NCBI GenBank assembly: GCA_964106645.2
Contig: OZ078259.1
Source: Podarcis pityusensis
Lineage: Eukaryota
Length of the DNA stretch: 64,000 bases
Direction: 5' to 3' (one strand)
The position numbers were made by a program, and so were the translations under genes. Shown here piece by piece: positions 1-58,567 of the stretch. Positions within the stretch are counted from its first letter, which is position 1, and every line of letters begins with the position of its first letter. The notes beneath the pieces are model-generated. The model had not been told where the DNA came from. It ran no database searches and saw only the letters and a program-made list of their open reading frames with translations.

Positions 1-3000
1 CAATACTTGTTTTTATTAATGCATTAATTAGTGCTCCCCCTTCTCCCTCCCCTTTACCCCCCTGTGCCCATAGAATGGAATCTGCTAAACAAATGGCTCT
101 GAAGATATCCTCTTCCTTATAAGATGTTTGTGTGGCATCATGAATTAGAGGAGCAAGAGGTTTTAATTCAAACACAGTCGCAAGAAGGGATATTTTTCTC
201 CGCTCAGTTTTCTCCTTACATAAATGTTTTCTTTTATAGTGCAAATTACTATGGAGAATGTTTTGACTAAACTTTCCAGGCTTTTCCTGGCACTCTGGAG
301 AAAAGACAACTGATTGTTCAGGCTTTGTCAGGGTTCTTGACAAGCCTTTTGCTTCTCCCTCCTGCTCCCAGGGCTGTAGTCACTTGTCTCTCTGACCCCC
401 CTGCCTGCTCCCTCCAGGTATAATTCTCTACTTGGGCTGTGGGGCTTCCTGAAGGGGCTGCAATCTGCCTCCCCCTCAGTGGCCCAATTCATTCTTGCCT
501 CTTTCCAGATACCTAACATTGCAAGGGGTTGAAATAGATGGCCTTTTTGATCCCTTCGAACTCTCGGTCTGTGACTCCATGGGGGAGGCAGCTCTGCAGA
601 ATTGGCAGAGTTAGTTTACTGCCCTTGCAATAAATGCATCTTTGATCCCTAAACTAGGGAAGAGTTAATCCTTTCCACATCTACAGTGATACAATTTAAT
701 TTTTTTCCCTTCTTCTCTCAGCATGAGAGTAACAGCCAAGAATCTCAATTGGTTATGTAAATTCAAAGCAGAGGCATGATTATTCCAACTTAGTTTAATT
801 TGTGAGTGAATATAATAAAAGGTGTTCTGAAAATGAATTATAATGACGCTTGGTTCAGGCTATTCTTGCATAAAATAAGTGTCCCGACTTCTGCCTAGCT
901 GCAGGATGGATGTGTGGGGTACCCCCGCCCCGTTTGCTCTGCTGTCTCCCCTTCAAAATAAATAAATCAAATTGTGAATTTAATAGATCAGCATGCAAAA
1001 GTCCTAGGTTCAACGCCCAATATCTCTAGGTGGGAATGTTCTCTGCCTCAAAACCTGGAAAGTTGTTCCTGCCAGTCAGTGTTGACAAACTTGGAAGAAG
1101 GTAGCTTCCAATGCTCCTAAATGAAGAAGAGCCCTGCAGCTGGACCAAACCAAAGACCATCTAGCCTAGTGTCTGACATCTTACTGTGGAACAGATTGTT
1201 CTAAAGGGCATGAGGCTCTGGGTCCTGTCACTGCTAGTGCTAAGTACCAGTGTCCTCTCTTTACCTCCTCCTCCTCTTTATCTTGGTGCTTTGGTCACAG
1301 TTTCCACCTCTGTTTGCTTTGGGGTCAGGGTGTTCCACTGGGATGGATGCTGCAGAGAGTCACCTCAGGTTGTAGTGTGGACATGCCACCTGAAGATGGG
1401 GGCAGGCTGTTGCTACCCCCCCACCCCCGTTGCACCCGCTATTCTTTGGAGCAAATAAATCTACACAAATCCTAATTGCTATTAAAAAAAACCCAGTTGT
1501 ACCCCAGGCTATTCAATATATAGCAGAGCTTAAAAGCACTTACTGCCTTTCCCCTTCTTGCTGGAAAAAGATGAAACAAACCCATTTGTAGAAAAGCCTC
1601 AAATGCAGAAACCAACTATTCTAATTTCCAGCCCATTCCTTTTATTCTTCCCCCTTTCTAAAATGTAAAAGGAGGGGGGCACAATGCACAGAAGAAATGA
1701 TTTCCATAAGCAGACCATTTTGGCAGCTAATTTTACCACCACTTACATCTGACTTTATGACTAAGATCTCATGCTAACTATATTAATCCTATCAGGTTTT
1801 GGGAGCAAGAAAAAATGAGACTGTATATTTTATGGATGCAGTAACTTCTGAGCCATTAGACATCTATGCTGACATGAAAGTAATCAAATATTACAGGGCA
1901 CCAGTTTCCCCCATGAAAACCCTGGGTGTTTGAATGTAGGTGGGGGATGTTCAGATGACCCCTTGAATATTACTGGTTATAGGTGAGCAGTCTTTCATTT
2001 TTCCTTAGTTGTGAAAGAGGCAGGTGTGTCCCACCTTAGTTGCATGATACCAGAGGCCCTTGGGTCCATTGTAGTGGGAGGGGTGGATTGGTGCTGTTTA
2101 GTTTTAATTTAATATTATCTTGTTTTTTGGTGTAGCAGCCATTTATGTAATGCAGCTGATGGCAAAATGTTTTGTTAAGGGTTTTTCAGTTATGTCTGAT
2201 TCTGGAGAGAATATAATGGTTCTCAGAAACCCAATTAAGAAGCTAGAACATTAATGGGGGCCATAAATCATCAAGTTAGAGGCTTGGGAGGAGCCAGCAA
2301 GAGTGGTTCAACTTGCCCTTTTGGCCAGTTTGCTGTTCTGCTGCTCAGTCATTATGAGGGACATGCAGGGAGGTTTGGGGATGCATAGGGGCAGGGAACT
2401 CAACTGCTGCCTAAGGATGCCACTTGGCGCAAGGGACTCTGGCTCTTAGGCATCTCCTGGCCCTCTTTGGATGGTGTTCTCTGTGGGGAATCACCCATGC
2501 CAAGAGGGACACGATGCTGAGCAATGCCATTCTTGCTATTTAACTAATGTGGCGAGTGAGCTTGAAAGCTGTTTCAACAACTGTTTGTTTCTTAAGAAGA
2601 ACTTTGTGGTTAAAAATAAAATAAAAAGAGGAGGAGGAGGAGAAAACAGCAAGGGAAAGCACGGTCTTATTTGAGCTTGACTGCAAAATTTCCTGTATTT
2701 CCCAATTTTGAAGGTTGTAACTTCAGCGGTGCAGAACGTGCATTTTTCAGAGCTCTCTCACTGAAGAGACCTGGCTGAAATTCTCTCTTACTGTGATTCT
2801 CATTCTTTCAGCTGGGAAGGGCTCTGTGGGGTCAGTGCATTTACTCCATTGCTGCAACCCTGGACCTGTGTAAAGCATTGTTTTGCTACTTTCCCTGATG
2901 ACCTAGATGCCTCCTCCCCATTGCCCAGCAATCCATCCTAATCTGGTAGCTACAAATGGAAAGGCAGGAAGAAATTCCAGTTCATGAACAGGACCTGAGC

Positions 3001-6000
3001 TCCACAGTAGCAACTCTCCATACTTGCAATTTCCAGCAACTGGACCATCATGGCAGGATGTCTCTGAATACCAGTTGCTGGGGGTGGGGTAGTGGTTACT
3101 GGTATACTGATCCTCAGGCATGTCCAAAGTCCGATTAGGGGGCCTAATCCGGCCTGCCGGTTGGTTTAATCTGGCCCCTGTGGCAGTTTATTCTCTGGGG
3201 TAAAATCCTAAAAAAAACCTTAACAACCTGAATCCTAAAAAAAAGCTCAACACAGCCCTTCACTTCATCAAATCTGGCTCTCTTTGAAAAAACTTTGGAC
3301 ACCACTGCTCCAAGAGCTTGCTTAATCCTCTTTGTCCAGGAAACTGAGCTAAAGAAGGGGATGTTTGCTGATGAATGTCTCTGGGTCCTTTTGCCCTTGC
3401 TTTGACACTTGCACAAGTGAGGAGTGTTTTACTGGTTCCTGGAGTGCTGCAAAGAACTAATGGGCCCACTCAGTTTTGTTCTGTCCTCATCTCTGGGTCT
3501 TCATCCCCAGCTGTTCCACACACAGGAGTCCCCCCCCCCCCATAGGCACTGGTGGGGGGCAGTGGTTGAGTAAGGGGAGAATGGCTGGGAAAGCTATTCC
3601 CTATCCCTCAGCAGATGGACAAAACAGCAGCAGAATCATTCCCTGAGTCTTGTCACTTTCCAGGTTCAGGTCACCTGGTGGTTTATGCAGCCCCTCGTCT
3701 TCTGCCTCAGAAGGAAGGCAAAGTATAGGAAAAGGACTTGGCTTCATAGGCTGAGCATTTGAATATTTTCACAGGCAAGCAGAGAAAAGCATATTGATCC
3801 AGGGAAGCTTCCCAAAATGCTGGTCTTATTTGCAAACCTTGGAAGCGCTTCCAGCTTCTGCATAATTATTTTCTTTTTTTAAAAAAGGAAGCATACATGA
3901 AATACAGTATAACGTCAGGACGATAGTTGATCGTAAGTTGTAGGTGGAGGTTTGCTGCAAAATGAATGAGTGCCCAGATCCAAGGATGGTGGTATTTTGC
4001 ACCAGGGAGGCCAGGAAAATATCTGCACTGTAGACACCTTTGTGTGTAACAAGCTTTTAGAAGGTTTTTGCCCAATGTCTGCTTGTGGACCTGGAGTGAA
4101 GCCACAAGTTAGTTTGCTTGCTGGGCTGCAGCTCCATTGCTTTGCTTACAGTTTACAGAAGAGCCAAGGCTGCCTCCGTTTCCTCTCCATTCTTCCAGCC
4201 CACCTATGGGACCTCCTATAAGGCAAGGTGGGCAGGGTCACACAGAGGGCTGCTCCCCAAGGCTGCTTGTTCAGGAAAACCTCTGAATTTGTTGACATAC
4301 TTGAGAAGTGAATCGGCTCCTAATGAGTGCTTTGTGTGGGGTGATCATCTAATGGGGGGGGGAGTGGGGTCTTGCACTTCCTCCTCCTGCAAGATTTCAA
4401 AGGATTCAGGAAGGCAGCGTGGATGTGGAATTCTTGGGCTGTGTGGACACAAGAAGATTGTCAGTTGAGGTGTCTGGTGTGCAGCAGGAGCAGCAGCACC
4501 TCATGGTTGTGGGAGTAGAGAAGAGCTTCCCCTACTTTTTAGAAAGGCCTTTCGGTGTCTGGGTTGATAACTGCCAATCAAGCTTCCATAGTTATGGAAG
4601 GTATACCCCTAACCACCCGCTTCTGGGGAAGGGCAGCAGGTACATAGCCCCAGGTGCCATAGCCCCAGGTCTTGAGTTTGGGCTGTCCCTTTCCCACCTT
4701 GCCTTGTCCAAAGCAACCTCCTCCAGAACTCCCTCATTGGGGAACTTCAGGTTTTGCTCTGATATGATGTTGGATGGCCACCTGTCAGGGATGCTTTCGT
4801 TATGATGCTTTCGCTGCTGGGGGTTGAACCAGATGACCCTTGGGGGCTCTTTCAGCTCTATGATTCTATGAAGAAATGTGGCACTGGGGTGGAGGTGCAA
4901 GGGTGGAAGCAGCTTAAGGTGTAAAGCACTCGTGTTCTGCAAACGCAAGGCTGGGGACTTGCCCTTGTCTGTATGCCATGGTGTGGGGCAGAGTTGGCCC
5001 TCACCAGCTGTGAGTTCTGAGTGCTCCTTCCATTGGAAAGAAAATGGAATATGGGCATTACAGCTTCTTCTGTGGGGGGTGGAGGGTGGTCCAGTGTTTG
5101 TGTGTTGCCCCCCTCCTTCTCTCTCCCCACCCCCTGATGCATTCTCTTGCTTTCTTCCACCTGCTTTCTTCCCTGGTTCAGCCTCTTCCTAGTTGCTCCT
5201 TCCAGCCTTTGGCTTAGAGGCTCTCCCAGCCTGGGTGGCTGCTGCCTTGTCTCGCCTGCCCTCCTTCCTTGTAATTCTGTCATGAATCAGAGCAACTTTT
5301 AACAAAACAAGATCCTCTCACTGTTGCAAAAGAGCTTTGGGGAAATCTGGCTTTTGTGGTTCAGGGTCTTACTCCGATGCACCAGGAAGGCAGGCAACGT
5401 TTAGCTTTTATTTGGCCCAGAGGATTCTTACAACATTATCCACATTTCCTTTAATTTGTGGGATTTCTAGTAAATGGGTTTAAAATTAGGTCCGGGCACA
5501 AAGCCAAAGAACATCTGAATGGTGCAAAACTGCAAGGCAACAAATGGCGAATTCTGAACAGTTTGCTTTCATTTCTCTCTGGGTGCTGGCAGGATTAACG
5601 GAAGAAAGTGTGTAGGGGTGGGGGTTATATTTTTCTCTAAACCAGCTGGGGAGAGGCATTGCCCAGTCATCCTACCCCACCTGTACCTTCTTTGGATGTA
5701 TGAATGGGCTTAATTAATGCACATCAGTTAAAGGAGCACATTAAAAGGCATTAATCAGGACTGGTCCCCTACACCTCTGCCTGGCCACTGGGCTCCTTAG
5801 GTTGTGGCCCTGCTGAGGGTGCCACGCCTGAGGAGTATGTTTAGTTTGCACTGGAAACTGGGCTTTTAGTGCTGTGGCTCCAGCCTTCTGGAATTAAACA
5901 AGTGCCTTGATATTTAGTCACTTTTCTTAAGGAAGCATTCCTTGAAATGGGACCCAGTCATTTGATGGAATAGTAATGGTATAATTGTGTAAGTCCATCT

Positions 6001-6148: not shown

Positions 6149-6690
6149 TGTTGTTGTTTAGTCATTTAGTCGTGTCCGACTCTTCATGACCCCATGGACC
6201 AGAGCATGCCAGGCACTCCTGTCTTCCACTGCCTCCCGCAGTTTGGTCAGACTCATATTTGTAGCTTCCAGAACACTGTCTAATCATCTCATCCTCTGTC
6301 GTCCCCTTCTTCTTGTGCCCTCAGTCTTTCCCAACATCAGGGTCTTTTCCACGGAGTCTTCTCTTCTCATGAGGTGGCCAAAGTATTGGAGCCTCAGCTT
6401 CAAGATCTGTCCTTCCAGCGAGCACTCAGGGCTGATTTCCTTAAGAATGGATATGTTTGATCTTCTTGCAGTCCATGGGACTCTCAAGAGTCTCCTCCAG
6501 CACCATAATTCAAAAGCATCAATTCTTCGGCGATCAGCCTTCTTTATGGTCCAGCTCTCACTTCCATACATCACTACTGGGAAAACCATAGCTTTTACTA
6601 TACGGACCTTTGTTGGCAAGGTGATGTCTCTGCTTTTTAAGATGTTGTCTAGGTTTGCCATCGCCTTTCTCCCAAGGAGCAGGCGTCTAC
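6149..6690 (-). mobile_element. RTE-BovB LINE, 5'-truncated 3' fragment
   Basis: Minus-strand peptide RRLLLGRKAMANLDNILKSRDITLPTKVRIVKAMVFPVVMYGSESWTIKKADRRRIDAFELWCWRRLL...; (CAA)n tail; TSD tgctgggggtggt (6136-6148) / tgttgggggtggt (6691-6703). Confidence 0.93.
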
Positions 6691-8893: not shown

Positions 8894-9701
8894 TGCTAGA
8901 GACCCCCACCCTGCCCTACTGTGTAGGAGGGAGTATGGAGAAATCTGCTATCCAACCTCCTCTTCCCAGGACAAGCTCCTGTGTGGAGGCTCTTGCTCCA
9001 GCTCCCTCTGAGAGAGAGAGGGATTCATGGGAAGGGAGGCAGCCTTGTGGGCACACGGCTGCTCTTCCCCAGATTTGTGCTGAGATAAGCACCCAATTTG
9101 CTTTCTGTTGGTGCAAGTGAAATGCCCATAGTAGCACCCCTGTTTTGTACCTTCCCATCAGCATGCAGAATAGTGGCCCCCAGTGAGACCCAAGGCAGCA
9201 AGACCCACTGCTTGCCTTGGAGGCAGTGAGACCTACACTGCTCTTTGACTATGTTGCTCCAGGGCACCACCTCCAGATCCTGCTCTTTGAAGTCTAGTCT
9301 CTCCTTTGCCTGTTTCTGTTTGATTCTCCAATGTGCTTATGTCGGAGCCCCTCATCCAAGGCTAGTTATTCTTTGGGGCTACTATGTCAAGGTAGCAAAT
9401 GGCTAATTGTTACATTTTGGGGGTGCAGTTTCATGCTTTGTTTTGTGGTCCAGGGCCTCAAGCTGGCTTGGGCCATCTCTGTGCAGCTTTTGTTGCACCG
9501 TCTTCCTGAGTAGGGCCCTCCTCCCTCTGCTGATATCTGTCCCGCAGGTGGTATTGTGAAAGGAAATCCCAGATTCTTCCCTGTGGAGCAGCAGCACACA
9601 TGTGCCCCCTGCTCCCAGAAGGCAGGGCTTGCTTGTTCCTGGGTAGAGTCTGGCCTTGCTGGTCACAGAAGCAGGCAGAGTACTTCGATGGCTGCGGGCG
9701 T

Positions 9702-9703
<2 letters not shown>

Positions 9704-9739
<36 letters not shown>
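9704..9739. repeat. (GT)n microsatellite
   Basis: Direct read. Confidence 0.95.
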
Positions 9740-9741
<2 letters not shown>

Positions 9742-10089
9742 AGTGTCACAGTCTCCGTGAAGAACAGACATGGCTCATGAATGCAAATGGAAAATATGCC
9801 AATCTCAGCATCGTAGTTGCATGTGATAAATACTATTTGCATATCATTTTCCTGACTTTTATGAGCATCTGAATACAGTTTCGCTTATTCTTCAGCTTCA
9901 TAGCTAGCAGATTGGGAAGGTATGAATGGGGAATGTGTTTCAGCTCTTACAGCAACATACAGGCCCGAGTCTTTTTTCATGCTGATGTGAAGTTTCAGAA
10001 CCAAACAAGGAAGGGAATCATCAGGCTGCCTCCACCTCCAAGCACCTGAAGGACCACTGATTTATTTATTTTTGGCGGGGTGTGTGTGA

Positions 10090-10808
10090 GCTTATTGTTG
10101 GCATCCACCTGTCTCCAGAGTGCTCCTTCAGGGGTGAAGTTAAACCATTGCATTAGCAGCACCGAAGTGATTTCGCTGGGGAGTAACCAGTGTATATGGA
10201 GGTCCAGGCTGTCCATATGGCAAGACCCCCCTCTCAGCCTTGCTAATGTGGTTCAAAGAAAAGCAGAACAATATGTTTGGCATCAGCTTGGCTGCAGGAG
10301 TTGTCAGGAGACACTCAAGGCATCTTCCAAGCATCTTAGGGACTCCACTCTGGAATTGTGTAGGGTTTACTCCTTAGCCTTTTCTTCTCCCAAAGAAGGC
10401 AGCAGGGGTTTAGGATCTGAGTTTTCCATCTCCTAGTTGAGCTTCCTTCACAGGTTGATGAGCTCCATCTGCCCCTCACTTCCCTCTACAGCATGTGCAG
10501 AAACCGCCTTCTTGACCATTGGACCCACTATTAGACTCTCTTCTCAGTCTGCTGGAGCCTGTCTTCATATGCAGGTGACGTCCCTAACTCACTTAGGTTT
10601 TAAGAACCATCGGCTACTCTCACCTGGTTTAGCTAGCCAGTTGAAGCTGTTTCCTGGGGTGTGGCTGCTGTTGCATGTTGACAGCTTCTAGGAGCCACAG
10701 GTGAGAGCTGAATGCAGGGTGGGGACCCCAAGGTGGACAGACTACCCCCAAAGGAGCATGATGTGTCCCCATCCAGAGGTATTACTCCTCCCCTAACACC
10801 CCATACAC
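10090..10808 (-). mobile_element. Bipartite non-autonomous RTE-derived element (5'UTR fused to 3' end)
   Basis: 10150-10305 matches the 5'UTR of the RTE at 18385-18535; 10092-10148 matches its 3' end at 13990-14055; no ORF between. Confidence 0.72.
10617..10802 (-). ncRNA. Candidate HDV-like self-cleaving ribozyme at the RTE-derivative 5' end (decayed copy)
   Basis: Minus strand: P1 GGGGTGT/ACACCCC, P2 CTCTCACCTG/CAGGTGAGAG, P3 GGC/GCC, L3 starting TCC, GG just after P1, weak P4 hairpin, J4/2 GCTAA. Confidence 0.55.
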
Positions 10809-12311
10809 TCTGGGTAGTGAGAAGCCCACAGTCATTCATCTTTTTGCATATTTCAATAGGGACTAGCAATGTCTTGTTGCAAAAACCTAGACTCACAGAA
10901 ACCCAGCCTAGGAAAAGAGTTTCAAGGTTGAGGTCATGGGCAGCAAACTGAGAGCAGCAGCTGCAGTAGGACCAAAGAGCAACCAAGGATACAGGAACAC
11001 ACCAGGGTGGGCTGAGGAAGACCTTGTGGCTCAAGCAAGGTCCAGCTGAAACAGCAGCCTTTTCAACCCCTTCCTGCCCATGAAGGTCCAGTGGCCAGAT
11101 TGGGTGGGGGGCAGAGTGTGTGACTTGTTGCAGTTCTGTGGCTTACTGCATGGGACAGCTGCATTCAGGCCCAGCAGTTGCTGAGGGAGTCCAGAGGCTG
11201 GGGGGGGGCATCCAGTTATCCCCCCTCCCTGAATTTTGAAGGGGGTGGTGCTGCGAAGGTCAGGAGGGGGGAGACTGGGGGAATCCCACCTGAATCTGGC
11301 CTAAGGCTGCCTTGTAGCCTTTGGCTGATAATCCAGATGGGGGACACTATGCTCAGGTTCCTGTCCAGTGTCATGGGAGGGAAGGAGAGAGAAGCGCCTC
11401 TACAGACCCTGCAAAAGTGAGTCCCCCAGCTACTTGCCTGCCTGCCAGCCAGCCAGCCAGCCAGATGGAGGAGTGAGCTGCCTTCTGCCTTTTCCCTTTC
11501 CCCTACCTTAAAAAAAAGGGGGGGACCCACCCGTCCCCATTGCATCAGAACTAGGCAGCATTCCTGGTGCTCTCATGTCTGTTTCTGCTGACTCACAGAG
11601 TAACTTGCTGAAGGGAGAGAAAAAAACAACCACGCAAAGTTCAGGGCTGGACATCCCATCCCACCATACTAGGCAATGAGCTGAAGCAAGAAACCGCCTG
11701 CTAGAGGAGAGAGAGGGTGCGAATGCAAAGAGGTATATTCCTCTTCTGCTTTGCTGTCCTGGTGCATTGGGGAGGAGGTTTGAGGCCAGCCGGCTAGCCC
11801 AGGGGCTTCTCAGCAAATGCTGCCTCGGTGGTTCTGCTCCGCATCTGCTGCTCTTGTCCTTGTGGTGGTTGCCTGTAGACTTTGGGCATCCAGCCTCCTC
11901 TTCCTTCTTCGGGGTTCCTCTTTTTGAATTGGGACCCTTCGGTACGGCATGCCTCTTCCCATTCTTTTCATCTTCACCTGAAATCTTGAAATGCCAAGGC
12001 TTGCCCAGGCACTATCGGCACTGTGAACCACCCCCATCCCTTCTTCTGAATGCTTCTGTACTATGAAGGTGGGGGGAACCCCACCCCACCCCAACTACAG
12101 CTCCCCTCCTTGGCCTCAGTATCTTGGTCAGCATTCTCTGTAAAGGTAACATTGCTTTGGGGTTGTTTTTGACACCCTCCAGAAAATGGCTGTGGTTTGG
12201 GAGGCATATTAGTTGGGAAAGGTGGTTAGAAGGCAACACTGTCTTTGGTTGCTTTCCTCCTTGTGGAAGCTGTAATCAGTGTTTGGGCAACTTGCTCTGT
12301 TGGTAGCAGGT

Positions 12312-12505
12312 TACTTAGGAAGCCACCTTATACAAGATTGGAATGTTAATCCCTGTAGCACAGTGTTGTTTCACTGACAGGAACCAGTGGCTCTCCAGGG
12401 TTTCAGGCAGAAGGCAGTCTCAGCCCTTACCTGGAGATGCTGCCAGTAGGGCTTCAACCTGGGACCTTCTGCGTACAAAGCAGGTGCTCTGTCACTGAGC
12501 TAACT
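12312..12505 (-). mobile_element. tRNA-derived squamate SINE (Squam3-like)
   Basis: Reverse complement begins TAGCTCAGTG...AGAGCA...CCCAGGTTGAA (A/B boxes); related decayed copies near 990, 7120, 24480, 42530. Confidence 0.6.
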
Positions 12506-12755
12506 GGCTTCTTCCTCTAATGTTTTGCCTTGATAACATCTTTCCCCAGCCTTTCTGGGCTGATGGAGGGGGGGGGGGGAGAGAGGGACTATAGAGTGCT
12601 CTATAGAGTCATGAGAGCCCTGCAGCTGGACCTGCCTAGAGGCATTCTGTTCTCACAGAGGGAAGCCAGATGACTAGTGGGAAGCCCATAAGCAGGACCT
12701 GTGTGCAACAGCACCCTAGCTGAACCACCCTGTGATCTTCAGATGAAGGGCAGTA

Positions 12756-12997
12756 CAGTGGTACCTTGGGTTACGTACACTTCAGGTTACATACGCTTCA
12801 GGTTACAGACTCCGCTAACCCAGAAATAGTACCTCAGGTTAAGAACTTTGCTTCAGGATGAGAACAGAAATTGTGCTCCGGCGGCGCGGCAGCAGCAGGA
12901 GGCCCCATTAGCTAAAGTGGTACCTCAGGTTAAGAACAGTTTCAGGTTAAGAGTGGACCTCCAGAACAAATTAAGTTCTTAACCCGAGATACCACTG
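12756..12997. mobile_element. Tc1/mariner-type MITE (family A)
   Basis: TIR CAGTGGTACC../..GATACCACTG, TA TSD; same family at 54598, 55123, 61953. Confidence 0.9.
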
Positions 12998-13732
12998 TAT
13001 ACAAATTTAATCAATAAATAACAATAAAATTGTCCATTTGACGCTTTGCACAATAGCATTTGATAGCCTTGTCCTCTGTTGGAGCCAGTGTTGTCTACTC
13101 TGGCTGTCAGTAACTGTTCAAGGTCTCACCCAGCAACTCCTCCCTCTATTCCTTTTAACTGGAGATTTCTGCCTTGGGGGATTGAACCCGAGGTCTTCTG
13201 CCTCCAGAGCTGCTGCTATGCCACTCAACTGTGGCTCCTTGCCGTGGATGAAAAGTGACCACTTGTCAGCTTTTTGGAGAGCAGTCCTTCAGTGCCTGCA
13301 AACCTCATTGATTTCAATAGAACTAGAGTTTCTTAACAGAGTGCAGGATTGCAGTGCATAGGACCCAATCCAGAGAGTGTTATGCATCTTTAAGGTGCAG
13401 CCACAATAGTTTCCCCAGGAGGTGGTTGGAAGCCAGGCTCACAGGTCTGGATCTTGCATTGTGCTAAGTGGTGCATCTTCACAGCCAGCAGTGTGGGGAT
13501 TTTAAAGGGTTTGGGCAGCTTTCCCCCTTTCCGCTCAAAAGTGCTGAAAGATAGTCGGGGGGGGGGATGGCTTTTTGCACACAAGTGCCACCTGGGGGGC
13601 TCTGTGGATTTCCCCTCATACCTGAAAACTGAAGGTAGGCCATACAAGCAATACGGTAGGCTGCTCCTGCTGCTCCTTGAAGTTTAAAAGTCCCTGAGCT
13701 GCAATCACCACAGCATCCTTCAGTTCATACTA

Positions 13733-13954
13733 CAGTAGAACCTCCACTTACCACCGCCCCTACTTGCAAACAGTTCGACTCGCAACCACAGCAAACCCGG
13801 AAGTAAATACCGGGCTTGCCACAATTCACACACGCACACAGAACGGTGCTGCCACTGAATGCACACACACAGAATGGCGCTTCTACCAGTGACCCGGATC
13901 AACTCACGAACGGACCTCTTGAATGGATTCCATACATGAGTAGAGGTTCCACTG
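13733..13954. mobile_element. Tc1/mariner-type MITE
   Basis: TIR CAGTAGAACCTC / GAGGTTCCACTG flanked by TA. Confidence 0.8.
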
Positions 13955-13957
13955 TAC

Positions 13958-13989
<32 letters not shown>

Positions 13990-16009
13990 TTGTTAAAATC
14001 TCTCTGTCTCAGGAGACAATGGAGGAATGTGCCTTTGGGGTAAAGTCAAACCCTTGGAGAATTACAGTGTCTGCTGTGGCTGTAGAGATTGATGCAGGAG
14101 AGAGATGTGTTATTGTAGCTAGGGCAGATGAAGGTGTTAGTGATCACTGTTAGAGATGTATCATGGCATTTCTTCTCTTTGCCCTCCTCCCAGCAATCAT
14201 TCCTCCTCTGGTCACTGCTATGGATACGCGACCTGTCTACAGGCACTGTGGTCATTTGCAAGAGATTATCACACAGCAGGGTTGATGTCACCAGCCATCA
14301 TGTCTTGTTTGCAGACATCTATGTAACACATGGTTGGTCTGCTAACAGGCCTGGTCCCTGTAGCCAGCTCCCTGTAGAGTATGTCCTTGGGGATCCTTCC
14401 ATCTTCCATTCTGTGGACATGGCCAAGCCAGTGTAGACATCACTGAGACAGGAGTGTGAACATGCTTGGGAATTTGGATTTGGGAGAGCATATCTTTGTT
14501 TGAGACTCTGTCCTGCCATGTGATGCCCAAAATCTTCCTGACGCAGTACATGTGGAAGGCTTTGAAGCATCACTCCTGACAGCTGTTAGTTGCCCTCCAC
14601 TCACTTCCATAAAGCAGCATGCTCTAGATGCAAGCCTGGTAGACCTTCATCTAGGTATTGGTCATTAGCATCACATTCTCCGATACCCTTTTGGAGAGGT
14701 TGCCAGAGCTGCCTTGCCAATACACTTGTCCAGCTGAGCATCAGTGGAGAGGTTGCTGGTTATGGTGGAGCCCAGAAGCACAAAATTGTCTATAACCTTA
14801 AGCGTTTGGTCACCAATGCTGATGCATGGAGTGCTGGCAATGTCCTGCCCCAGGATGTTGGTCTTTGTCAGGATGATGGTAAGGCCGACCTCCCTGCAGG
14901 CTTGGGCAAGATGGTTGATAGCCTCTGTAGAGCTTCCTTGGAGTGTGCTGTAAAGGCTGCTTCATCTGCAAACATCTCTCTGATAAGCACCCGCTGCACT
15001 TTTGTCTTGGTGCGGAGACATGATCATTTTGTGAAGCTTTGGTGGGCACCACATCTTGTTGAGCAGTGTGAAGAGCCTGTTTTGGCTGATGAGATCAAAG
15101 GCCTTTGTCAGGTCTATGAAGTTGATGTACAAGAGGCATCTCTGCTCCTGGCATTTCTCCTGCAGCTGAGAAAATCATGTTGACTGTTGACTTCTGAGCT
15201 CTAAAGCCATGTTGTGGCTTGAGATAAACCATGTTGGCGAGTGACTGTAATCTGTTGAGAACTACACAGGTGAAGGCTTTCCCCACAGTACTCAGTGGGG
15301 AGATTCCATGTTAGTTGTTACAGCCATGGTGGTCACCTTTGTTTTTGTAGAGGGTCACAATGCTGGAGTCATGCATGTCTTGTGGCATAGATCCTTGTTT
15401 CTAACACTGCAAGATAAAGCCATGGAGGTGCATCATGAGGGAGGAATTGAAGCGAGCTTTCAGCACTTCTGTTAGGATTCCATCCTGTCTTGGGGCTTTA
15501 CCACATGCTTGAGAGTTGGTGGTATTCTTCAGCTTGTCAAGGAAGGGAGCGACATCCCACTCTTCCAAGGCAGGCAGGCAGGACACTGTTGACTGCTGTG
15601 TCAGAGACCATGTTTTCCCATGAGTACAGTTCTTGGTAGTGCTCTGTCCATCACTTTGTCTGGTTGCTGCAGTCTCTGATGATCTCTTCTGGCAAAAGTT
15701 TTTAGTGATGCAGTTTTCATGACTGTTGGTCCAAAAGCTTTCTTCATGCCATTATACATTTTGCGAGTGTTGCCAGTGTCAGCAATGAATTGAATGCTGT
15801 GACACAGCTTTAGCCAGTAGTTATTGGCACATTATCTGGCAGTGTGCTGGGCATCACTCCTTGCCTTTCTCAGTGTAACAGGTGTCTTTTTGCAGCGCTT
15901 GTAGTTCAGAAGAGCCTTGCACTTTACAGTGATAACAGGCTCCATGTCCTTCATGCCAACCTCAAACCAGTCTGGGAACTGTTGGTCTCTTTTGCCAAAG
16001 GAGGATATA

Positions 16010-16936
16010 CCGTATTTTTTGCTCTATAAGACACACTTTTTCGCTCCTAAAAAGTAAGGGAAAATGTGTGTGCGTCTTACGGAGCGAATGCAGGCTGCAC
16101 GGCTAAGCCAGAAGCCAGAACAGGGAGAGGGAGCGTTGCGCAGTGCTCCCTCTCGCTGTTCTAGCTTCTGGTTTAGCTGCGCAAAGCCTCCGCAAGGCAG
16201 CGGGATGAAGGCACCCCACTGCCCTGCAGAGGCTTCATGGGCTGTCCCAGAAGCCAGAACAGCGAGACGGAGCGCTGTGCTCCATCTCGCTGTTCTAGCT
16301 TCGGGCTTAGCTGCGCAAAGCCTCTGCAGGGCAGCGGGGTGCCTTCATCCCACTGCCCTCCGGAGGATTTGCAGGCTGTCCCAGAAGCCTCCGCAGGACA
16401 TGGGGATGAAGGCTCCCTGTGCCCTGCGGAGGCTTCGCATGAAGCTACAACAGCTAGAGGGAGCACTGCGCAGCACTCCCTCTAGCTATTCTGGCTTTTG
16501 GAAAGCCCCGCGAAGCCTCTTAGGGCAGTGGGACGAAGGCTCCCCACTGCCCTGCGGAGGCTTCGTGCAGCTCTTGCGGGAAGTGGGGGGAAGGGACAGA
16601 GCGCGCGGCTCTGTCCCTTCCCCCACCTCCCAGAAAATCCCCCAAGAGCCGCGCTCCCTTTAAAGAGCACGCAGCTCTTGCGGGAGATGGGGGAAGGTAC
16701 AGAGGGCAGCTAACCCACACGCAGACTCTTCCGGGCAGGGGGAGTCTTCATCCCGCTGCCTGGGAGAGGCTTCAGCGGCTATCCCAGAAGCCAGAACAGC
16801 AAGAGGCTATCCCAGAAGCCAGATCCCTCTTGCTGTTCTGGCTTCTGGGATTCAGAATTTTTTTCTTCTTGTTTTCCTCCCCCCATAACTAGGTGTGTTT
16901 TATCATCTGGTGCGTCCCATAGAGCGAAAAATATGG
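16010..16936. mobile_element. Tc1/mariner (Tc2/Tigger-like) non-autonomous element with internal repeats
   Basis: TIR CCGTATTTTTTGCTCTAT / ATAGAGCGAAAAATATGG, TA on both sides; inserted in the RTE. Confidence 0.82.
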
Positions 16937-17354
16937 TAGCTGTGTTGTAGGTTGCCTCTTTGATGTGCTTCCACCTTACTTCAACACTTGTTCGGCAGAA
17001 TCACAGAAGCATTCACAAAGTTCAAGTATGATTTTTCTGCCACTGTTGATTCAAAACCACACTTTGTGCTATGGGTCCTCTTTGGCTGGAGATGGATCTT
17101 GCTTGCCACCAGGGAGTGATCAGTGTCGCGGTCAGCACTGTGGTAATTTTATGTGACGCAAACACAGTTCAGTGCCGTTCACCTGGTGATAATCAAGTCC
17201 ATCTGGTGCTAGTGGCCTGACCTTGGATACTTCCAGGAAATTTGCTGTTTTACCTTGGTAGAGAAGAACAAGTTTGTGATGCAGAGGCTTTGATACAAGC
17301 ACAGCTCAAGCAGCCTTTGTCTGCTCTCATTAATGCTGCCAGTACCAAAGAAGC

Positions 17355-17608
17355 GATGGGTAGGCAAACTAAAGCCCAGAGGCCGGATCTGGTCCAATCA
17401 TATTCTACATCTGGCCCGCGGGCGGTCCGGGAATCAGTGTGTTTTTACATGAGTAGAACATGTTCTTTTATTTAAAATGCATCTCTGGGTTATTTGTGGG
17501 GCATAGGAATTTGTTCATCCCTCCCTCCCCAAAAAATATAGTCTGGCCCCCCACAAGTTCTGAGGGACAGTGGACTGGCCCCCTGCTGAAAAGGTTTGCT
17601 GACCCCTG
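17355..17608. mobile_element. hAT MITE nested in the RTE endonuclease region
   Basis: Ends .ATGGGTAGGCAAAC / GTTTGCTGACCCCTG; 8-bp TSD aaagaagc/aaagaggc. Confidence 0.8.
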
Positions 17609-18837
17609 AAAGAGGCCTATGCAGTTGTCCCATGTGTGATGATCACCCCCTATTCTTGCATTGAAACCTCCCAGCAGAAATAGGTGTTCACAGTCTGGGA
17701 CCCTCCTGACAGCCTGGTCTAGTTGCTTGTAGAACTGGTCCTTGGTTTGTATGTAAGGGAACATAGTGGGAACATAGACACTCAATATGTTAACTGGACC
17801 GAAGGTGGTTGAGAGGTGGAGGGAAAGCAAGTGTTCTGAGCCCTCAGCTGGTTCTGTCGCAGACAGAAGAGAGTTCCCCACTGTGAATCCTACGCCATGA
17901 ACACATGTGTCTTCCGGATGACCTCCTTGCCAGAAAATGGTGTAGTTCTTCTCTCAGAGTCTGCCATTCGAAGCGAGTCTGGTTTCCTGTAGAATGGCAT
18001 GTCAGTGTTTGAATTTTTTCAGATCACAGTCTTCCATGAGTCATTAACTAGCAGCAGTTCAGTGGACGAGCGAGGACACATGGTCTTGACATACCAGCTT
18101 GCTAGGTGCAAGAGGATTTGTCTCTTTTATTTTTTACCTGGTATAGTAGTTTGGTCTGTTTCTTGATTGATACTCTGAGTTTCAAGCACCCACTGAAGCA
18201 GGTGGACAGTGGCAGGCCATCACTTTATTGACCGAGGGCTGTCTGGCTTTAGGTGGGCAGTAGCTGACAAGTGAGACATGATGATCTCTCCCACTGACGA
18301 AAGCTACCCATTGTGCTCGTACCTTACGTCAATCAGACTGAGCTTATAACTCATAACTTCTGCTTCCTGCGTTTTTGCTGCGTTTTGCAGCATTGAAGTG
18401 ATCAGGGCATAGTCCTGGGCAGTGTGTATGGAGGTCCTGGGCTGCTCAGAAGACAAGACTCTTACTGGCCATACTGATGTGGTGCAAAGGAAAGCAGAGA
18501 AATATGTTTGGCACCAGCTTGGCTGCAGGAGTTGCCTGACAGAGGTATATAGTTAGAAGACAACTGGCCAGACATGTACATGGCTACAGAACTGCTTTTT
18601 TACTTGCAAATTGTTTTTTAGTTTAAAAATACTTTACCCTTCTCTCCAGCAAAATGATAAATGTGTTTTAGCATCGGGGCAGCTGAAGCAAACCCCACAT
18701 TCCTATAGTCATGTTAGTGCTATAGTTTAAGTGAGTTTAAAATGTGAAAGTGCAATACACAAAGAGTGTTTTGGGGTTTTTTATTAGGGTTGGTAAACCT
18801 CTGTGTTGTATCTAACCAAGTTTTTACTCAGAAATTA

Positions 18838-19207
18838 CAGTGGTACAGTGTACAGTGGTACAGTGGCAAGACGAATGCCTCGCAAGACAAAAAACTCGCT
18901 AGACGAAAGGGTTTTTTGTTTTTTGAGCTGCTTCGCAAGACGATTTCCCCTATGGGCTTGCTTCGCAAGACGGAAACGTCTTGCAAGTTTGTTTCCTTTT
19001 TCTTAACACCGTTAATACAGTTGCGACTTGACTTCGAGGAGCAACTCATAAAACGTGGTGTGGTAGCCTTTTTTGAGGTTTTTAAAGACTTTGGTGATTT
19101 TTGAAGCTTTTCCAAAACTTTCCTGACACCGTGCTTTGCAAGACAAAAAAATCGCAAGACGACAAAACTCGCGGAACGAATTAATTTCGTCTTGCGAGGT
19201 ACCACTG
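18838..19207. mobile_element. Tc1/mariner-type MITE with stuttered left end
   Basis: Right TIR TTCGTCTTGCGAGGTACCACTG + TA; internal CGCAAGACG repeats; left end repeated TACAGTG(G). Confidence 0.82.
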
Positions 19208-21557
19208 TAATGGAAATTGATTTTGCTTGGTGTGCCCTGAGCCTGTCTAATGTTGGATGCAACTCTATATTTTGTGCAGAAGCCATCCTGAAGTTTGGGG
19301 TGGCAACTGGGGGAGAGGGCAACATGAACTGGGAGATTCTCAACTGCAGCCATCTCAAGAGCCACCCATCTCAAGGCCATTAAGTTCTAGGTCTGAAATT
19401 CCGTAGTGCTACGACCACTGAGGCTGGATCTGTCTGGTGCCTATTGCTCCACTTGTGATAAGGAGACAGATCAGGCTCCAGGTCTCTCCCCTTCTGAGGC
19501 CTTTAAGTCTCTCTTTAAGGGATAACTAGAATTCAGACAGCTTGTGTGGCAACCATCTGTAATGCAACAAGGCTAAAATCTGAATTAACAGTTCATGAAT
19601 TAACTGGAGAGAGAAATGGCCCTTTTTTGTGGACATTTTTGAAACTCTAGCATCCCTCTCTTTCAAGGAAAGGAAAAAGGAGTAATTTCCTGCTTCTGTG
19701 GATGCTGAGTAATATAAGCAAACACAGACCTTTGAAAAAAGCAAGTCCCAAATTCATGATTGATTGATTTTTCTTTTATTAGTTACCTACCCTTTGTGGC
19801 AAGGTGGGTTACATTTTTAAAAAGTGGTATTTATGTGGGGAGGCTCACCTTAAGAGTGTGTGTGATTTTGGGGGCCCGTGCTTGCATGAGAGCATGGTGT
19901 CCAAAAGTGTGTGAGATTGCGGTGCCCCAAAATATGTGTTTTTTAGGTGCCATGTTCTTGCATGGGTCATGTGACCTATGCAGGAGTGCGGCCTGGAAGA
20001 CACGTGTCTTGTTTTGCGCTGGGACATGTTGGAGGGTATGACAGCACCATTCACGTAACAAAAACTACCACAGATAACAACATTTTCAAAAGTAGGGGGT
20101 CCATAACTTGGCTTTTGAAAAACAGGGTCCTCAGTGCTTAGCTACGTAATTGGGAACCACTGATCTAGAGGCTCTCAAGAGGATCCTTATAATTTCTGAG
20201 CAGGCAGTATATAAATCCTTTTATATGTGTTAGTAAATTAAAAATGGGGTTTGCTAATACCACCAATTTTTAAGCAGCCCTTCCCCAAAAGCTTCAACAA
20301 ACAGCAGATTTAGATTATATTGTAGGAATTAGAAGCAGTGTGTGTATTTCGGAGGTTATGCATCATTGCAAGTTCAGCCAGCCAGCCCAGGAGGTTCCCT
20401 TTTAGCCCCTTGCTAGCCAAAGTGATCTCTAGGGTCAGGTCAGGTTGCCGCAAATGTGGGGGGGGAGGGGGGAGGGAGAGAACATCAGTGGCAGCTGGAC
20501 TAGTGAGGCCAAGAGAAACCTTAATGCACACTCCCAGAGGGCCCCCCTCCCCAATTTCCAATTGTTTCACTGGAAAATAAAAGTGTTGTGAGAGGCTTTG
20601 GGGGGGGGTATGATAGGATGCTTCCCCCTCCCCTCCCTGGAGTTTCTTTTCTACCTAAACCTTCCAGTCCTCCAGCCGAGGACTTGCAGTCTTTGAGAGA
20701 ATGTGTCTTTCTGGTTGGGAGTGTCTTGTAAGAAGGGGCTCAGGTCTGAGTAATGGTGCAAAGGGAGGAGTGTGGTGTGTGGAGTTGGGGGTAGAAAGTG
20801 GAAGGCAACTGGCTCTGTGACCTGAAACGCTTAGTCTTAATAACTTGCACTGTAGAAGGAAAACAGGTCTCTGTCCCAAGGAGATTCCAGTGGTAATAGA
20901 CCAGGCTTCCTCCAGCAGTTGCTGGGGGATTGCAAGCAGATTCCAGAGCACATAGTGAAAATGACACAGGGGCATGGGGTGGGGACCATGCTGCAAGGTG
21001 GGCTCAGAGCCAGCTCCAGCACTGGTATTGCCCCTGGGTCAGGCTCAGGGTTTTGAGACAGGCTCCAGGGCAGGCCTGTTTTGTGAAGGGTGTGTGTATG
21101 TACACCCCCCCATGTGTGCGTACACCCCCTCCTTTTGTGACACCCTGGCCATTGACCTTATCAGGCAGAAGGAGGGGATAGTAAAAGGTGGGTGGGGGGT
21201 ATTTTGCCTTTGCCCTGGTTCCTCCTGTCCTTTGTTCCTTCTCACCCTGAGGAGTTAATGGAGAGCCTCCGCTGCGCCAGCTCTGCAGACTGTTTGGAAT
21301 ACTTTAAATGCTTTGACACTCTGGATGTGCTGGATGGGAGAGGAGGCGGTTTGCAGCTTAATTCATATGCAAAACTGTGCCATAAATCCTGAGCCCTGTC
21401 TCAGTTGCTGTGGCACCACTAAGCATTTCATCAGCGCCCCATACAGTATTTCTGCCATCTTTGTTTGCATTGCAGTGACTCATCAAAAGTCTGTCTTGTA
21501 CCAACACCCTGAGCATTCCTCTGGCACTGATCCTTCTCTCCCCCCCCCCTTCTCCTC

Positions 21558-22161: not shown

Positions 22162-23520
22162 ACAGAGCAACCCATTGTGTGGTCACTTTTTTAGGAGCAG
22201 TCAGTTTGCAGGGAGGACAGATCTTTTGGAGTCTAGTTCAACTAGGTGCTGTTGAAGCAACTCAGAATCGGGACCTCCTGTGTGGAGGGGGTGGACTGTG
22301 TGTGTGTTTTTTTGGGGGGGAGAGGTCTTAATTGTTCCTGTGTGCCAAGGAGATGAAGGGAGGCGCCATTGAAGTCATGGGGAGTTTCTCCCTCCCTGGC
22401 CTCAACCAGCTAAAGAGAGGCATAGATTTTGCTGGTTTAAGAGAATTTGTTGGCGTTTCTCCGCATGCTGCCTGTGTTTTGGTGCATGTGGGTGGGGGGA
22501 AAGAGGAGGCATCACTGCCATGACATGACGGTTCCCGGAGGATCCTAAAATAGATCCATGGGCTTTGCTGCATTCTTGATGCAAAGGCGAGAGCCCAGGC
22601 AGGTGTCTCCTTTGCATGGAGGTCAACATCTCCCCTCCCCCCGAAATTTAGAAAGGGAGTGCCATAGAGGAATGCCTTTGGGAGTCCAACAGTTGAGAAG
22701 AGTTTCAGGAACTGGGGAGCCTGTCCGTATCCTGGGCTGCTGCAGTAGACGGCAGCCCCCAGCCCCTCTCCATTCCCTGCATCCAGCACTTTGAATGATG
22801 GTGGGGGCGGAGGGGACGGACAGCTGCCTGGCCCTTCCTTGGCTCCTCAGCAGTTCCAATGTGCAGGGAAACTTGGAATAATTATGCGCAGAAGTTGCTG
22901 CATTTCTGAAGCGTCCACCCATCTCTCTCTCCCCCCTCCTTTCTCCCAAGTTTCCAGCTGTGTCAGCTTTTTCAGGAGCGTGCGCTGCCTGCCCTGATAG
23001 TGCCTGGTTTGGAAATCCCATCCCAATACCTTGTTTGGGGGATCATACCTTTTGTGGCGTGTGTACCCCCACCCCCGAAAAAGGGAAAAATCTTGCAGCA
23101 GCAGCAGCCTGGATTCAGGTTGGTGGAGTCAATGGAGGCAGTTCTCAACGCCCACCCCCACCCCAGCTGGAATGGGTAGCCATCTTTGCCTGTGTTTCTC
23201 TTGCCCTGGACTGGTTGTGTTGCACTGGTGGTACACTGAGGGCTCTGTGGGTGGGGTGTAGTTTTTTTGAACTCTGTTATATTGAGTTTCTTCCTCCCCT
23301 TGTTAGGAATGCTCTTCACAGGAGGGGGATTTTCCAAACACTGGCAGAATCCCTCTCCCTGGTACTTCCTGATTCTTGTGTTTCTGCCAGATATCCTCTC
23401 TCTTCCTTTCTCTTTTTCACGTGCCTGTTTCCTCTCCTCCCACCCACTCCCCTGCCCCGCCTACAGATGTGCCCTCTCTCAGGAGCTCTGGTGTTGAGCG
23501 CGTGAGGCAGTTGCTGAGCC

Positions 23521-24358
23521 ATGTCGCAGATGCTGCACATAGAAATCCCCAACTTTGGGAGCACCGTCCTGGGCTCCCTGAATGAGCAGCGCCTCCTGGG
23601 TCTCTACTGCGATGTCTCCATCCTGGTCAAGGGCCAGGCCTTCAAGGCTCACCGGGCTGTCTTGGCAGCCAGCAGCCTCTACTTCCGAGACCTCTTCAGT
23701 GGCAACAGCAAGAGCGCCTTCGAGCTGCCGGGCTCCGTGCCGCCCGCCTGCTTCCAGCAGATCCTCTCCTTCTGCTACACCGGCAAGCTGACCATGGCTG
23801 CCAGCGAGCAGCTGGTGGTGATGTACACAGCAGGCTTCCTCCAGATCCAGCACATCGTGGAGAAGGGGACAGACCTGATGTTCAAAGTGAGCTCCCCTCA
23901 CTGCGACTCCCAGACGGCCATGACGGAGGAGCCCTGCTCGGGGCCCCAGAGCCCCTGCCACCCCCTGCAGCCGCCCTCCCTGCCCTATGCTGTGTCGCCT
24001 TCCGTGCCCCTTCCACTGCTCACCCGCGTCAAGCATGAGACCTTGGAGCCTGCGAAGCGGTCCTTGGAGTGCAGCCTGCGGGAGGCGGCCGGGGGCAGCT
24101 CCTCTGCCAGCGCCCCGCTCAAATTGTCGCGCGTCTCCTACTACGGGGTGCCCAGCCTTGCCACCCTCCTCCCCAGCATCCCGCTGGCTCAGTACTGCCA
24201 GGGGGAGCGGACGAGCCCTGGGGCCAACAGCCTCCCCACCACCGACAGTCCCACCTCCTACCACAACGAGGAAGATGAGGACGATGATGAAGCCTATGAC
24301 ACCATGGCGGAGGAGCAGTACGGGCAGATGCACATCAAGTCCACAGGCGGCTATGCAG
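23521..24358 (+). CDS. NACC2: NACC2 first coding exon (BTB/POZ domain + linker)
   Basis: [55 protein letters not shown]... is a BTB domain matching vertebrate NACC2; acceptor ctacag at 23461-23466, donor GCAG|gtaaaa after 24358 (phase 1). Confidence 0.97.
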
Positions 24359-26465: not shown

Positions 26466-26633
26466 GGCCTCAAGAGAAGCCGGAGCCAGTGCCCCTGGAG
26501 AGCCGCTCTTGTGTCCTCATCAGGCGGGACTTGGTCGCCCTCCCTGCCAGCCTTATCAGCCAGATTGGGTATCGCTGCCACCCAAAACTCTACTCAGAAG
26601 GAGATCCTGGAGAAAAACTTGAACTCGTGGCAG
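26466..26633 (+). CDS. NACC2: NACC2 coding exon 2
   Basis: ccccaag|GG...GCAG|gtaagg; encodes [55 protein letters not shown]. Confidence 0.95.
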
Positions 26634-27649
26634 GTAAGGACCCACAGGGGCAGGTTTTCCTTATGCTTATGGACTTGTTGCAGTAACATGGCTTAAAAAT
26701 TGTAAATATTGTAGAACTCCTGCAATTCTTTGTTTCATTAACAAGGGATCTTTTAATTTCTGCATGATTTGGTGGGGTTTTTTAATTAAAAAATAAAAAT
26801 AAAATAAATTTAGAAAAGATAAATTGCAGTGAACCAAAATGTAGAAAATTTTGCTTATAAAATTAATCTGACCTAAATTTATTTTGTTTATAAAATTACT
26901 TTGTTATTTATGGTAATATTGTAAATGTGATATCTATTTAAGTAGAGTCCCCCCCCCCTTTCTTGTCTTTCACTTCTGAGAACAAATATAACTTCCTTGG
27001 ATTCTTATTTCATTTACTTTACATTGTATCTGTGAAAGCTGTCTTACATTTTTCTAAGCTTTGTTTATGAAATGGACTGGCCACCTTGGTGTCCACCTTC
27101 CCTGAGCAACTTCTCAGTATTTAGGTGTGAAGGGAGTTTTAGATAAGAGACCCCAAAGAGCTAATCCAGAGCATTTTCCCCTTGTCAGGCCTTCAGTGGG
27201 GGGAGAAGAAAGGTTGCCTCCCTGAGAGAGCAGGGAGTAGAGGTGGGCAGGGCCAGGGCGCCCTCACCTGGCAGGAAGAGAATGTGCCTTTACTGCTGGC
27301 CATTCCAGTAAAGAGTGAAAAGGCTGGATCTTTTGCTGGGGGTAGTGATCCTGAGGGATCTCAGGACCCTCCCTTGGGTTGCCACGATCAGGTCACAGAC
27401 AACTCCTTTTCCTGCTGCCCAGGTCACTTCTCTGAGGTATGTCATAAGTCTTTGCTGCTTCAAGATGATCTGAGTCAGTATTAACTGCATGCATGTTTGT
27501 GTCCTGTTGTACACCTTGCAGAGCAGAGCTGGGGGTGTGACTTCTGGACCTCTTACTTGCTCTCTCCTGTATTGCTGGAAGTTGGACATGATGACCCTTG
27601 GGGTCCCTTTCCACTCTACAATTTTATTATTCTCTCTCTCTCCACCCAG

Positions 27650-58494: not shown

Positions 58495-58567
58495 GTAGGT
58501 GTCCCTGGCAATTGAGCCTCCCCTTGAGATGGGTCCCCGCCCCCCACAGAAGACTGTAAGTGAAGAC

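What the first reader, a model, noticed from the sequence alone, without database searches (positions are those of the whole stretch)
10090..10808. Bipartite ORF-less RTE derivative (SIDE-like): ribozyme-headed 5'UTR fused directly to the RTE 3' end
Seen: 10150-10305 aligns with the 5'UTR of the RTE at 18385-18535 (shared aatatgtttggca.cagcttggctgcaggagttg), while the adjacent 10092-10148 aligns with that RTE's extreme 3' end at 13990-14055 (ctgtctc...ggggt.aagt.aaacc). The ~4 kb coding region is absent. Ordinary LINE copies are 5'-truncated, so keeping both ends points to an internally deleted non-autonomous element, as known for R2-derived SIDEs and RTE-derived bipartite elements. Inference: it could cleave itself out of host transcripts and use RTE protein in trans without a Pol III promoter. 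No convincing TSD was visible.
Basis: partly seen in the sequence, partly recalled or inferred. Interest (0 to 1): 0.7.

Follow-up and report, generated by a model that had tools for sequence, protein, structure and literature searches.

The report
Ribozyme-headed miniature RTE retrotransposon family
This 720-base stretch is a worn copy of an abundant protein-less jumping element made from the two ends of a larger retrotransposon; it begins exactly at a predicted self-cutting RNA that carries an unusual extra hairpin, and it likely spread by borrowing the parent's enzyme, a known kind of arrangement.

Summary
Real and mobilised. Window 10093-10811 (minus) is one copy of a ~745-nt ORF-less family: ~683 nt of an RTE LINE's 5'UTR joined to its last ~60 nt. 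The junction has 536 exact matches genome-wide (control 0; roughly 1,900 copies); other copies have TSDs; divergence is ~12%. A longer sister family (~815 nt) is its likely parent: LINE to B to A. The 5' end coincides with G1 of an HDV-like fold. Two distant homologues keep that fold with compensatory changes, and one shares a hairpin inserted in loop L3, where another has the canonical 7 nt. The two LINE ends are predicted to pair. This copy has a broken P1.1 pair and no clear TSD, so it is probably inactive; cleavage is untested. The architecture is known (bipartite RTEs, R2 SIDEs), and this scan found ribozyme-headed mini-RTEs with end-pairing before in other genomes. The L3 hairpin and the two-step reduction are what this adds. 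Repbase/Dfam could not be checked.

The parts
10093..10811 (-). Whole copy of bipartite non-autonomous RTE, subfamily A (~745 nt when intact)
   Evidence: 86% identity to the family majority sequence over positions 4-745; read depth rises and falls at these ends in two related organisms
10805..10811 (-). P1 5' strand of the predicted HDV-like ribozyme; first base = element start = predicted cleavage site (two mismatches in this copy)
10796..10802 (-). Second, tandem copy of the P1 5' strand (intact here); absent from homologues L105 and L245
10708..10804 (-). J1/2 domain, about 95 nt (98 and 91 nt in L105 and L245)
10694..10707 (-). P2 5' strand (10697-10707) and P3 5' strand (10694-10696)
10666..10693 (-). 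Loop L3, 28 nt: UCCUAG core plus inserted 6-bp hairpin with 7-nt loop (10667-10685)
   Evidence: long L3 in 34 of 37 scored heads; short-L3 pattern 0 matches in the genome
10654..10665 (-). P3 3' strand, P1 3' strand and P1.1 dinucleotide (GG in the inferred ancestor and both homologues; AG here after CpG decay)
10617..10653 (-). J1.1/4, P4, J4/2 with predicted catalytic C at 10632, and P2 3' strand
   Evidence: C kept in 35 of 37 scored heads
10151..10616 (-). Rest of the RTE 5'UTR; collinear with ORF-bearing copies and 70-79% alike to metagenomic RTE 5'UTRs
10147..10150 (-). Junction: 4-nt microhomology inside ~15 nt of imperfect homology between 5'UTR and 3' end
10101..10146 (-). RTE 3' end: last codons, stop codon (10140-10142) and 3'UTR with terminal stem-loop (9-nt deletion in this copy)
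10093..10100 (-). Short (AAC)n tail
13960..18550 (-). Decayed, 5'-truncated ORF-bearing RTE of the parent lineage, with nested insertions

Best explanation
The stretch is a decayed copy of an ORF-less retrotransposon family made of an RTE LINE's 5'UTR joined to its 3' end, which was likely cut out of longer transcripts by a predicted HDV-like ribozyme at its first base and likely copied by RTE protein in trans. Shown: bipartite anatomy, shared junction, copy number, TSDs in other copies, 5' end at P1 G1, fold conserved with compensatory changes in two distant homologues, sister family B. Inferred: (1) an ~815-nt derivative (B) arose from the LINE by internal deletion and acquired a 3-nt tail deletion; (2) a second ~70-nt deletion between imperfect repeats gave A; (3) read-through or self-initiated Pol II transcripts were cut at G1; (4) RTE protein recognised the 3' stem-loop, probably together with a helix between 5'UTR and 3' end, and inserted copies by target-primed reverse transcription. 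The family is old and the window copy is probably inactive.
For: Junction pattern 536 exact matches, reversed control 0; 6 of 21 head-selected A copies match it exactly, giving ~1,900 (1,000-4,800) copies. 0 of 29 non-self head-selected loci run into an RTE ORF; 20 cover the A junction fully. TSD score >=8 in 8 of 22 two-ended loci vs 1.7% of mismatched pairs. ORF-bearing L091 has family positions 1-683 then the ORF. Tail 3-nt deletion: A 26 short/0 long/4 unclear of 30, B 13/0/5 of 18, ORF-bearing copies 11 long of 12; 5'UTR sites 487, 501, 558 join A with B, sites 423, 656 join B with the LINE. No shared sequence upstream of G1 in 30 loci. HDV descriptor met after restoring one CpG; 1 of 3000 shuffles with P2>=8, 0 with P1 at the 5' end. 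L105 and L245 have the same P1, P3, spacing and catalytic C with double changes in P2 and P4. End helix: own-partner duplex -21.4 vs swapped -18.0 kcal/mol, p 0.005, 7 elements.
Against: No cleavage or transposition assay. No covariation among the 28 genomic copies, as expected of neutral decay. The energy fold of L042 does not give the pseudoknot and pairs L3 with P4 instead (z +1.2). RNA reads show no pile-up of starts. End helix is weak in single copies (z -2.1 to +0.4 in 10, absent in the window copy), L138 does not support it, and the 5' motif was not found in 7 of 13 metagenomic loci. No intact partner ORF among 13 extended loci.
Confidence: 0.85

Rival explanations
1. The ribozyme fold is a non-cleaving relic or protein-binding/promoter element in this lineage: the L3 hairpin (or the L3-P4 alternative helix) disables catalysis, and the 5' end is set by an internal Pol II promoter.
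For: L3 is part of the catalytic core (PMC4908430, part 1 read); an 8-bp L3-P4 alternative helix is predicted (-12.0 vs -8.1 kcal/mol for the hairpin arms as duplexes); the trypanosome Pr77 head is both promoter and ribozyme (PMC3383444, search listing).
Against: Copies start at P1 G1; catalytic C, UCCUAG and HDV-like spacing are kept; L245 has a covarying L3 hairpin and a different P4, so the L3-P4 complementarity is not conserved.
Confidence: 0.2
2. Copies arise by repeated independent deletions of full-length LINEs at a recombination hotspot, not by spread of a short master.
For: Imperfect homology flanks the junction; other junctions exist (L095, L097, L100, L103, L194).
Against: A copies share derived bases and a 3-nt tail deletion that ORF-bearing copies lack, and far outnumber them (1 of 30 read-on loci enters the ORF).
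Confidence: 0.03
3. It is an ordinary Pol III SINE (Squam1/Sauria, Squam2, Squam3) with an RTE-derived body.
For: RTE 5'+3' parts are common in SINEs (PMC5786205).
Against: No B-box in the first 300 nt, no tRNA hit at 10093-10811; the head is LINE 5'UTR; Squam SINEs are tRNA-related and 190-350 nt (PMC10702118, passages).
Confidence: 0.02

Closest known systems
Bipartite ORF-absent non-autonomous RTE LINEs: RTESINE1/2, WALLSI3, MAR4_MD, RTE-N2_Lch, Bov-A (Kojima 2018, PMC5786205; parts 1-4 of 5 and supplement passages read)
   Same: 5' end and 3' end of an RTE joined, no ORF, no small-RNA head; the paper already links this to 5' self-cleaving ribozymes and Pol II transcription.
   Different: Longer (745/815 nt vs 262-286 nt for RTE-N1/N2_Lch); different RTE lineage (three family motifs had 0 hits in the supplement text); two nested subfamilies; the ribozyme is mapped here.
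R2 SIDEs of Drosophila (Eickbush and Eickbush 2012, PMC3414825; abstract read)
   Same: 5' HDV-like ribozyme plus 3' end of the parent LINE, propagated in trans.
   Different: RTE not R2; dispersed with TSDs rather than rDNA-specific; thousands of copies; cleavage not tested here.
HDV-like ribozymes of non-LTR retrotransposons (R2, L1Tc/NARTc, RTE; PMC3774820, PMC6765202, PMC4035085 passages; PMC4908430 part 1; Ruminski 2011 and Webb 2009 not held)
   Same: P1 7 bp starting at the element's first base, 3-bp P3, 2-bp P1.1, C in J4/2, long J1/2 with extended P2.
   Different: 28-nt L3 with an inserted hairpin instead of 7 nt; tandem second P1 5' strand; no Rfam model matches it or the canonical homologue L105.

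Membership tests
Bipartite non-autonomous RTE LINE | 5' part derives from the 5' end of an RTE LINE | tested here: met
   L091 and other ORF-bearing loci collinear with positions 1-683; parent protein relatives carry RVT_1 and Exo_endo_phos; RTE clade label from the single EN-RT ORF is recalled, no tree was built
Bipartite non-autonomous RTE LINE | 3' part derives from the same LINE's 3' terminus with simple-repeat tail | tested here: met
Bipartite non-autonomous RTE LINE | No ORF and no small-RNA (Pol III) head | tested here: met
Bipartite non-autonomous RTE LINE | Amplified as a unit: shared junction, TSDs | tested here: met
   the window copy itself has no clear TSD
Bipartite non-autonomous RTE LINE | Identity with a named Repbase/Dfam entry | not testable with these tools
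   no repeat library available
HDV-like ribozyme | Nested double pseudoknot P1, P1.1, P2, P3, P4 | tested here: met
   family level only: descriptor after one CpG restoration and compensatory changes in L105, L245; P1.1 broken in the window copy
HDV-like ribozyme | Catalytic C in J4/2 and G at the cleavage site | tested here: met
   C in 35 of 37 heads; G1 at element start; first base is A in the window copy
HDV-like ribozyme | Short (about 7 nt) L3 loop | tested here: not met
   28 nt here, 25 nt in L245, 7 nt in L105; that short L3 is the norm is recalled
HDV-like ribozyme | Self-cleavage 5' of G1 | not testable with these tools
   needs a cleavage assay
tRNA-headed squamate SINEs (Squam1-3) | tRNA-related head with A/B boxes, 190-350 nt | tested here: not met

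The most novel reading that the evidence does not exclude
This RTE lineage uses an active HDV-like ribozyme subtype with a stem-loop inserted inside the catalytic L3 loop (conserved by covariation in an unrelated genome), and RTE RNAs pair their 5'UTR with their 3' end; that pairing is part of the signal for RTE protein, holds the two ends together, and explains why RTEs shed bipartite miniatures stepwise (LINE to 815 nt to 745 nt) with breakpoints that stay inside the helix loop.
Probability: 0.35. Interest if true: 0.65.

Novelty: new variant of a known kind. Interest (0 to 1): 0.45.

Why it matters
Why only a few LINE clades yield bipartite non-autonomous elements is left open in Kojima 2018. 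This family gives a clean natural series (LINE, B, A) that brackets the minimal cis signals of an RTE: a 5' ribozyme, a predicted helix joining the two ends, and a 3' stem-loop. The L3 hairpin, if compatible with cleavage, widens the HDV-like fold and means short-L3 descriptor searches miss a subtype. For the host, the copy itself is probably an inert passenger.

Tried and rejected
Rfam scans found no ribozyme in 9500-19500 or in L105, L042, L054, L039; uninformative, since the canonical homologue L105 is missed too. Pair counting on 28 genomic copies gave no covariation above shuffles. Direct pairwise test of the 3' piece was not significant. No RNA holder listed for the stretch; raw RNA reads of a related organism laid at 85% gave 531 and 653 reads, mostly under 95% alike, both orientations, no start pile-up, which fits scattered copies inside host transcripts and says nothing on cleavage; a family-wide test of RNA starts remains open. 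'Detachable head': 15 of 15 head-only loci extended by ~9.8 kb showed no resumed element, no RTE ORF and no convincing TSD (2 of the 15 lacked enough left flank), so capture of other RNAs is neither shown nor excluded. Pattern scans gave 1 viral and 5 prokaryotic-genome hits; five lack the other helices by eye and were dropped, L245 was kept. Two loose descriptor hits (L116, L158) in 109 kb of upstream DNA were taken as chance. Ten literature searches found no description of this family, of an L3 hairpin insertion, or of RTE 5'-3' pairing; Ruminski 2011 and Webb 2009 were not held and may show such variants, also in their supplements.

Full report
Observation. The 5'UTR similarity holds (79%, E 8e-21). 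The 3' similarity is not significant for this copy alone (score 31; chance scores of 30.5 and 37 elsewhere in the window), because the copy has a 9-nt deletion there, but the family majority sequence aligns with the window RTE's end at 78%, E 1.5e-7. The element lies on the minus strand from 10811 to about 10093.

It is a family. A junction query gave 538 candidates, 40 scored, 30 fetched; all 29 non-self loci cover the junction. A 5'-head query gave 2610 candidates, 40 scored, 30 fetched. Of the 29 non-self loci 20 cover the same junction fully, 4 partly, 5 not at all, and none runs into an RTE ORF (one has a 27% hit to another LINE). A 22-base junction pattern has 536 exact matches, reversed control 0; 6 of 21 head-selected copies match it exactly, giving about 1,900 copies (95% range 1,000-4,800). 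Of 59 loci, 22 had both ends; 8 of 22 had a TSD score of 8 or more against 1.7% of mismatched flank pairs; the window copy scored 5. Mean distance to the majority sequence is 11.6% including CpG sites. Contigs of two other organisms cross the same element-flank borders, so the insertion predates their split.

Origin. L091 carries family positions 1-683 (with one nested insert) and goes on into the endonuclease ORF, so the whole head is LINE 5'UTR. None of 13 extended ORF-bearing loci was complete. Protein relatives at 50-57% include sea urchin and shrimp records. A pattern for the 5'UTR reading on past the A junction has 175 matches, but of 30 fetched 23 are a second bipartite subfamily B (~815 nt), 6 other, and 1 enters the ORF. 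A and B share a 3-nt tail deletion that ORF-bearing copies lack (A 26 short, 4 unclear of 30; B 13 short, 5 unclear of 18; ORF-bearing 11 long of 12, some themselves internally deleted). Three non-CpG 5'UTR sites join A with B, two join B with the LINE. The simplest order is LINE, then B, then A by a second ~70-nt deletion between imperfect repeats with a 4-nt microhomology; this order is inferred from these characters, no tree was built.

The head. Intact copies begin with GGGGUGU, and 30 such loci share nothing upstream (commonest base at -1: T in 18 of 30). In the 11 with both ends, 9 scored 6 or more for a TSD next to G1 against 11.8% of controls; the search was limited to ends within a few bases of G1, and some loci overlap. 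GGGGUGU pairs with ACACCCC as a 7-bp P1; P2 has 10-11 pairs, P3 is GGC/GCC, L3 starts UCCUAG, and J4/2 is GCUAA. The P1.1 site is a decayed CpG (CAG 16, TGG 11, CGG 4, other 6 of 37 scored among 55 heads). With that one base restored in the script the HDV descriptor is met; 1 of 3000 shuffles gave a hit with P2 of 8 or more and none had P1 at the 5' end; the plain majority sequence fails and 3 of 30 copies pass. I allowed a long L3 after seeing the sequence, so the outside evidence matters more. Among 63 metagenomic RTE loci, L105 has a canonical ribozyme 825 nt before its ORF with the same P1 and P3, a 7-nt L3 and double changes in P2 and P4. L245 has the same frame, further double changes in P2 and P4, and a 25-nt L3 holding a hairpin GUUGUU/GACAAC with a 7-nt loop, against GCUGUC/GACAGC with a 7-nt loop here; its register differs by three bases. 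All three keep four bases between P1.1 and P4 and a G before the catalytic C, as I recall for HDV. The long L3 is in 34 of 37 heads, also in L091, and a short-L3 pattern has 0 matches in this genome. The family also has a second GGGGUGU nine bases on; 28 of 29 heads keep sequence upstream of it, L044 starts at it. Against: no covariation among copies, an energy fold that prefers an L3-P4 helix, no Rfam match, no assay. The window copy keeps the catalytic C but has AG at P1.1 and 5 of 7 P1 pairs at the first site.

End pairing. Prompted by two earlier notes of this scan, I folded the junction: the last ~40 nt of the 5'UTR part pair with the 3'UTR, followed by a terminal stem-loop. Both A and B breakpoints fall between the two arms. 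In 6 of 13 metagenomic full-length RTEs the 5' motif was found; with the A sequence, own partners average -21.4 kcal/mol against -18.0 for swapped partners (permutation p 0.005), with compensatory changes seen by eye in L105, L107, L108 and L130; L138 does not fit, and shuffled-3' fractions ran from 0.007 to 0.36. In 10 single copies z-scores were -2.1 to +0.4 and the window copy does not form it. This is moderate support.

Mechanism. Likely: a transcript running through a master copy was cut at G1, RTE protein bound the 3' stem-loop (probably with the end helix) and inserted the copy by target-primed reverse transcription, leaving (AAC)n tails and TSDs. No B-box was found. Cleavage, protein binding and trans-mobilisation are inferred from family knowledge.

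Comparison. Kojima 2018 (PMC5786205; parts 1-4 of 5 and supplement passages) lists bipartite ORF-absent RTEs, says only RTE, Ingi, Vingi and R2 make them, and links this to 5' ribozymes. R2 SIDEs are the tested precedent (PMC3414825, abstract). RTE ribozymes are reviewed in PMC6765202 (passages); fold rules come from PMC4908430 (part 1 and passages), PMC3774820 (passages and section 15) and PMC4035085 (passages); PMC9901934 passages gave only the catalytic C. Squam SINEs differ (PMC10702118, passages). Ten searches found no account of this family, the L3 hairpin or RTE end pairing, but Ruminski 2011, Webb 2009, Repbase and Dfam could not be consulted.

Verdict. It is a known architecture with a variant ribozyme and an unusually clear two-step reduction; the window copy is an old passenger. 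Interest 0.45.

Noticed in passing
L197-L226; L227-L241: About 13 of 30 loci with a perfect 5' head lack the 3' tail; 15 of 15 head-only loci extended by ~9.8 kb do not resume (ends at family positions 106-637). Later deletion or nested insertion is likely, head capture by template switching is not excluded.
   Followed up: partly
L202 / L236: Positions 1-186 are inverted against 198-743, as in twin-priming 5' inversions (term recalled).
   Followed up: no
L245:1391-1585: An RTE-type HDV-like head with L3 hairpin sits in a record titled as a bacterial MAG; 35-51% GC and a nearby RT fragment suggest animal DNA in the assembly; single copy in that genome.
   Followed up: partly
L095, L097, L100, L103, L194: Further internally deleted RTE copies with other junctions that keep part of the ORF; not tested whether they are families.
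   Followed up: no
L105, L107, L108, L109, L115, L141 and others: The non-coding 5'UTR (family positions ~340-680) is 70-79% alike to RTE 5'UTRs in metagenomic contigs, pointing to strong RNA constraint or horizontal transfer.
   Followed up: no
window 16025-16945 and ~17350-17610: Nested insertions in the window RTE; the first is rich in inverted repeats that give weak miRNA-like Rfam hits, probably a MITE-like element.
   Followed up: no
window 12440-12509: tRNA-like hit above Rfam's gathering score on the minus strand, probably a SINE head.
   Followed up: no
window 23518-31419 and 51449-60516: Host genes on the plus strand: a BTB-domain gene and a UBA-domain gene (they look like NACC2 and UBAC1, recalled). 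The element lies ~13 kb upstream of the first, in the opposite orientation.
   Followed up: partly
window 6185-6625: Fragment of a different, BovB-like (label recalled) RTE 3' ORF end, 31% to P0004.
   Followed up: no
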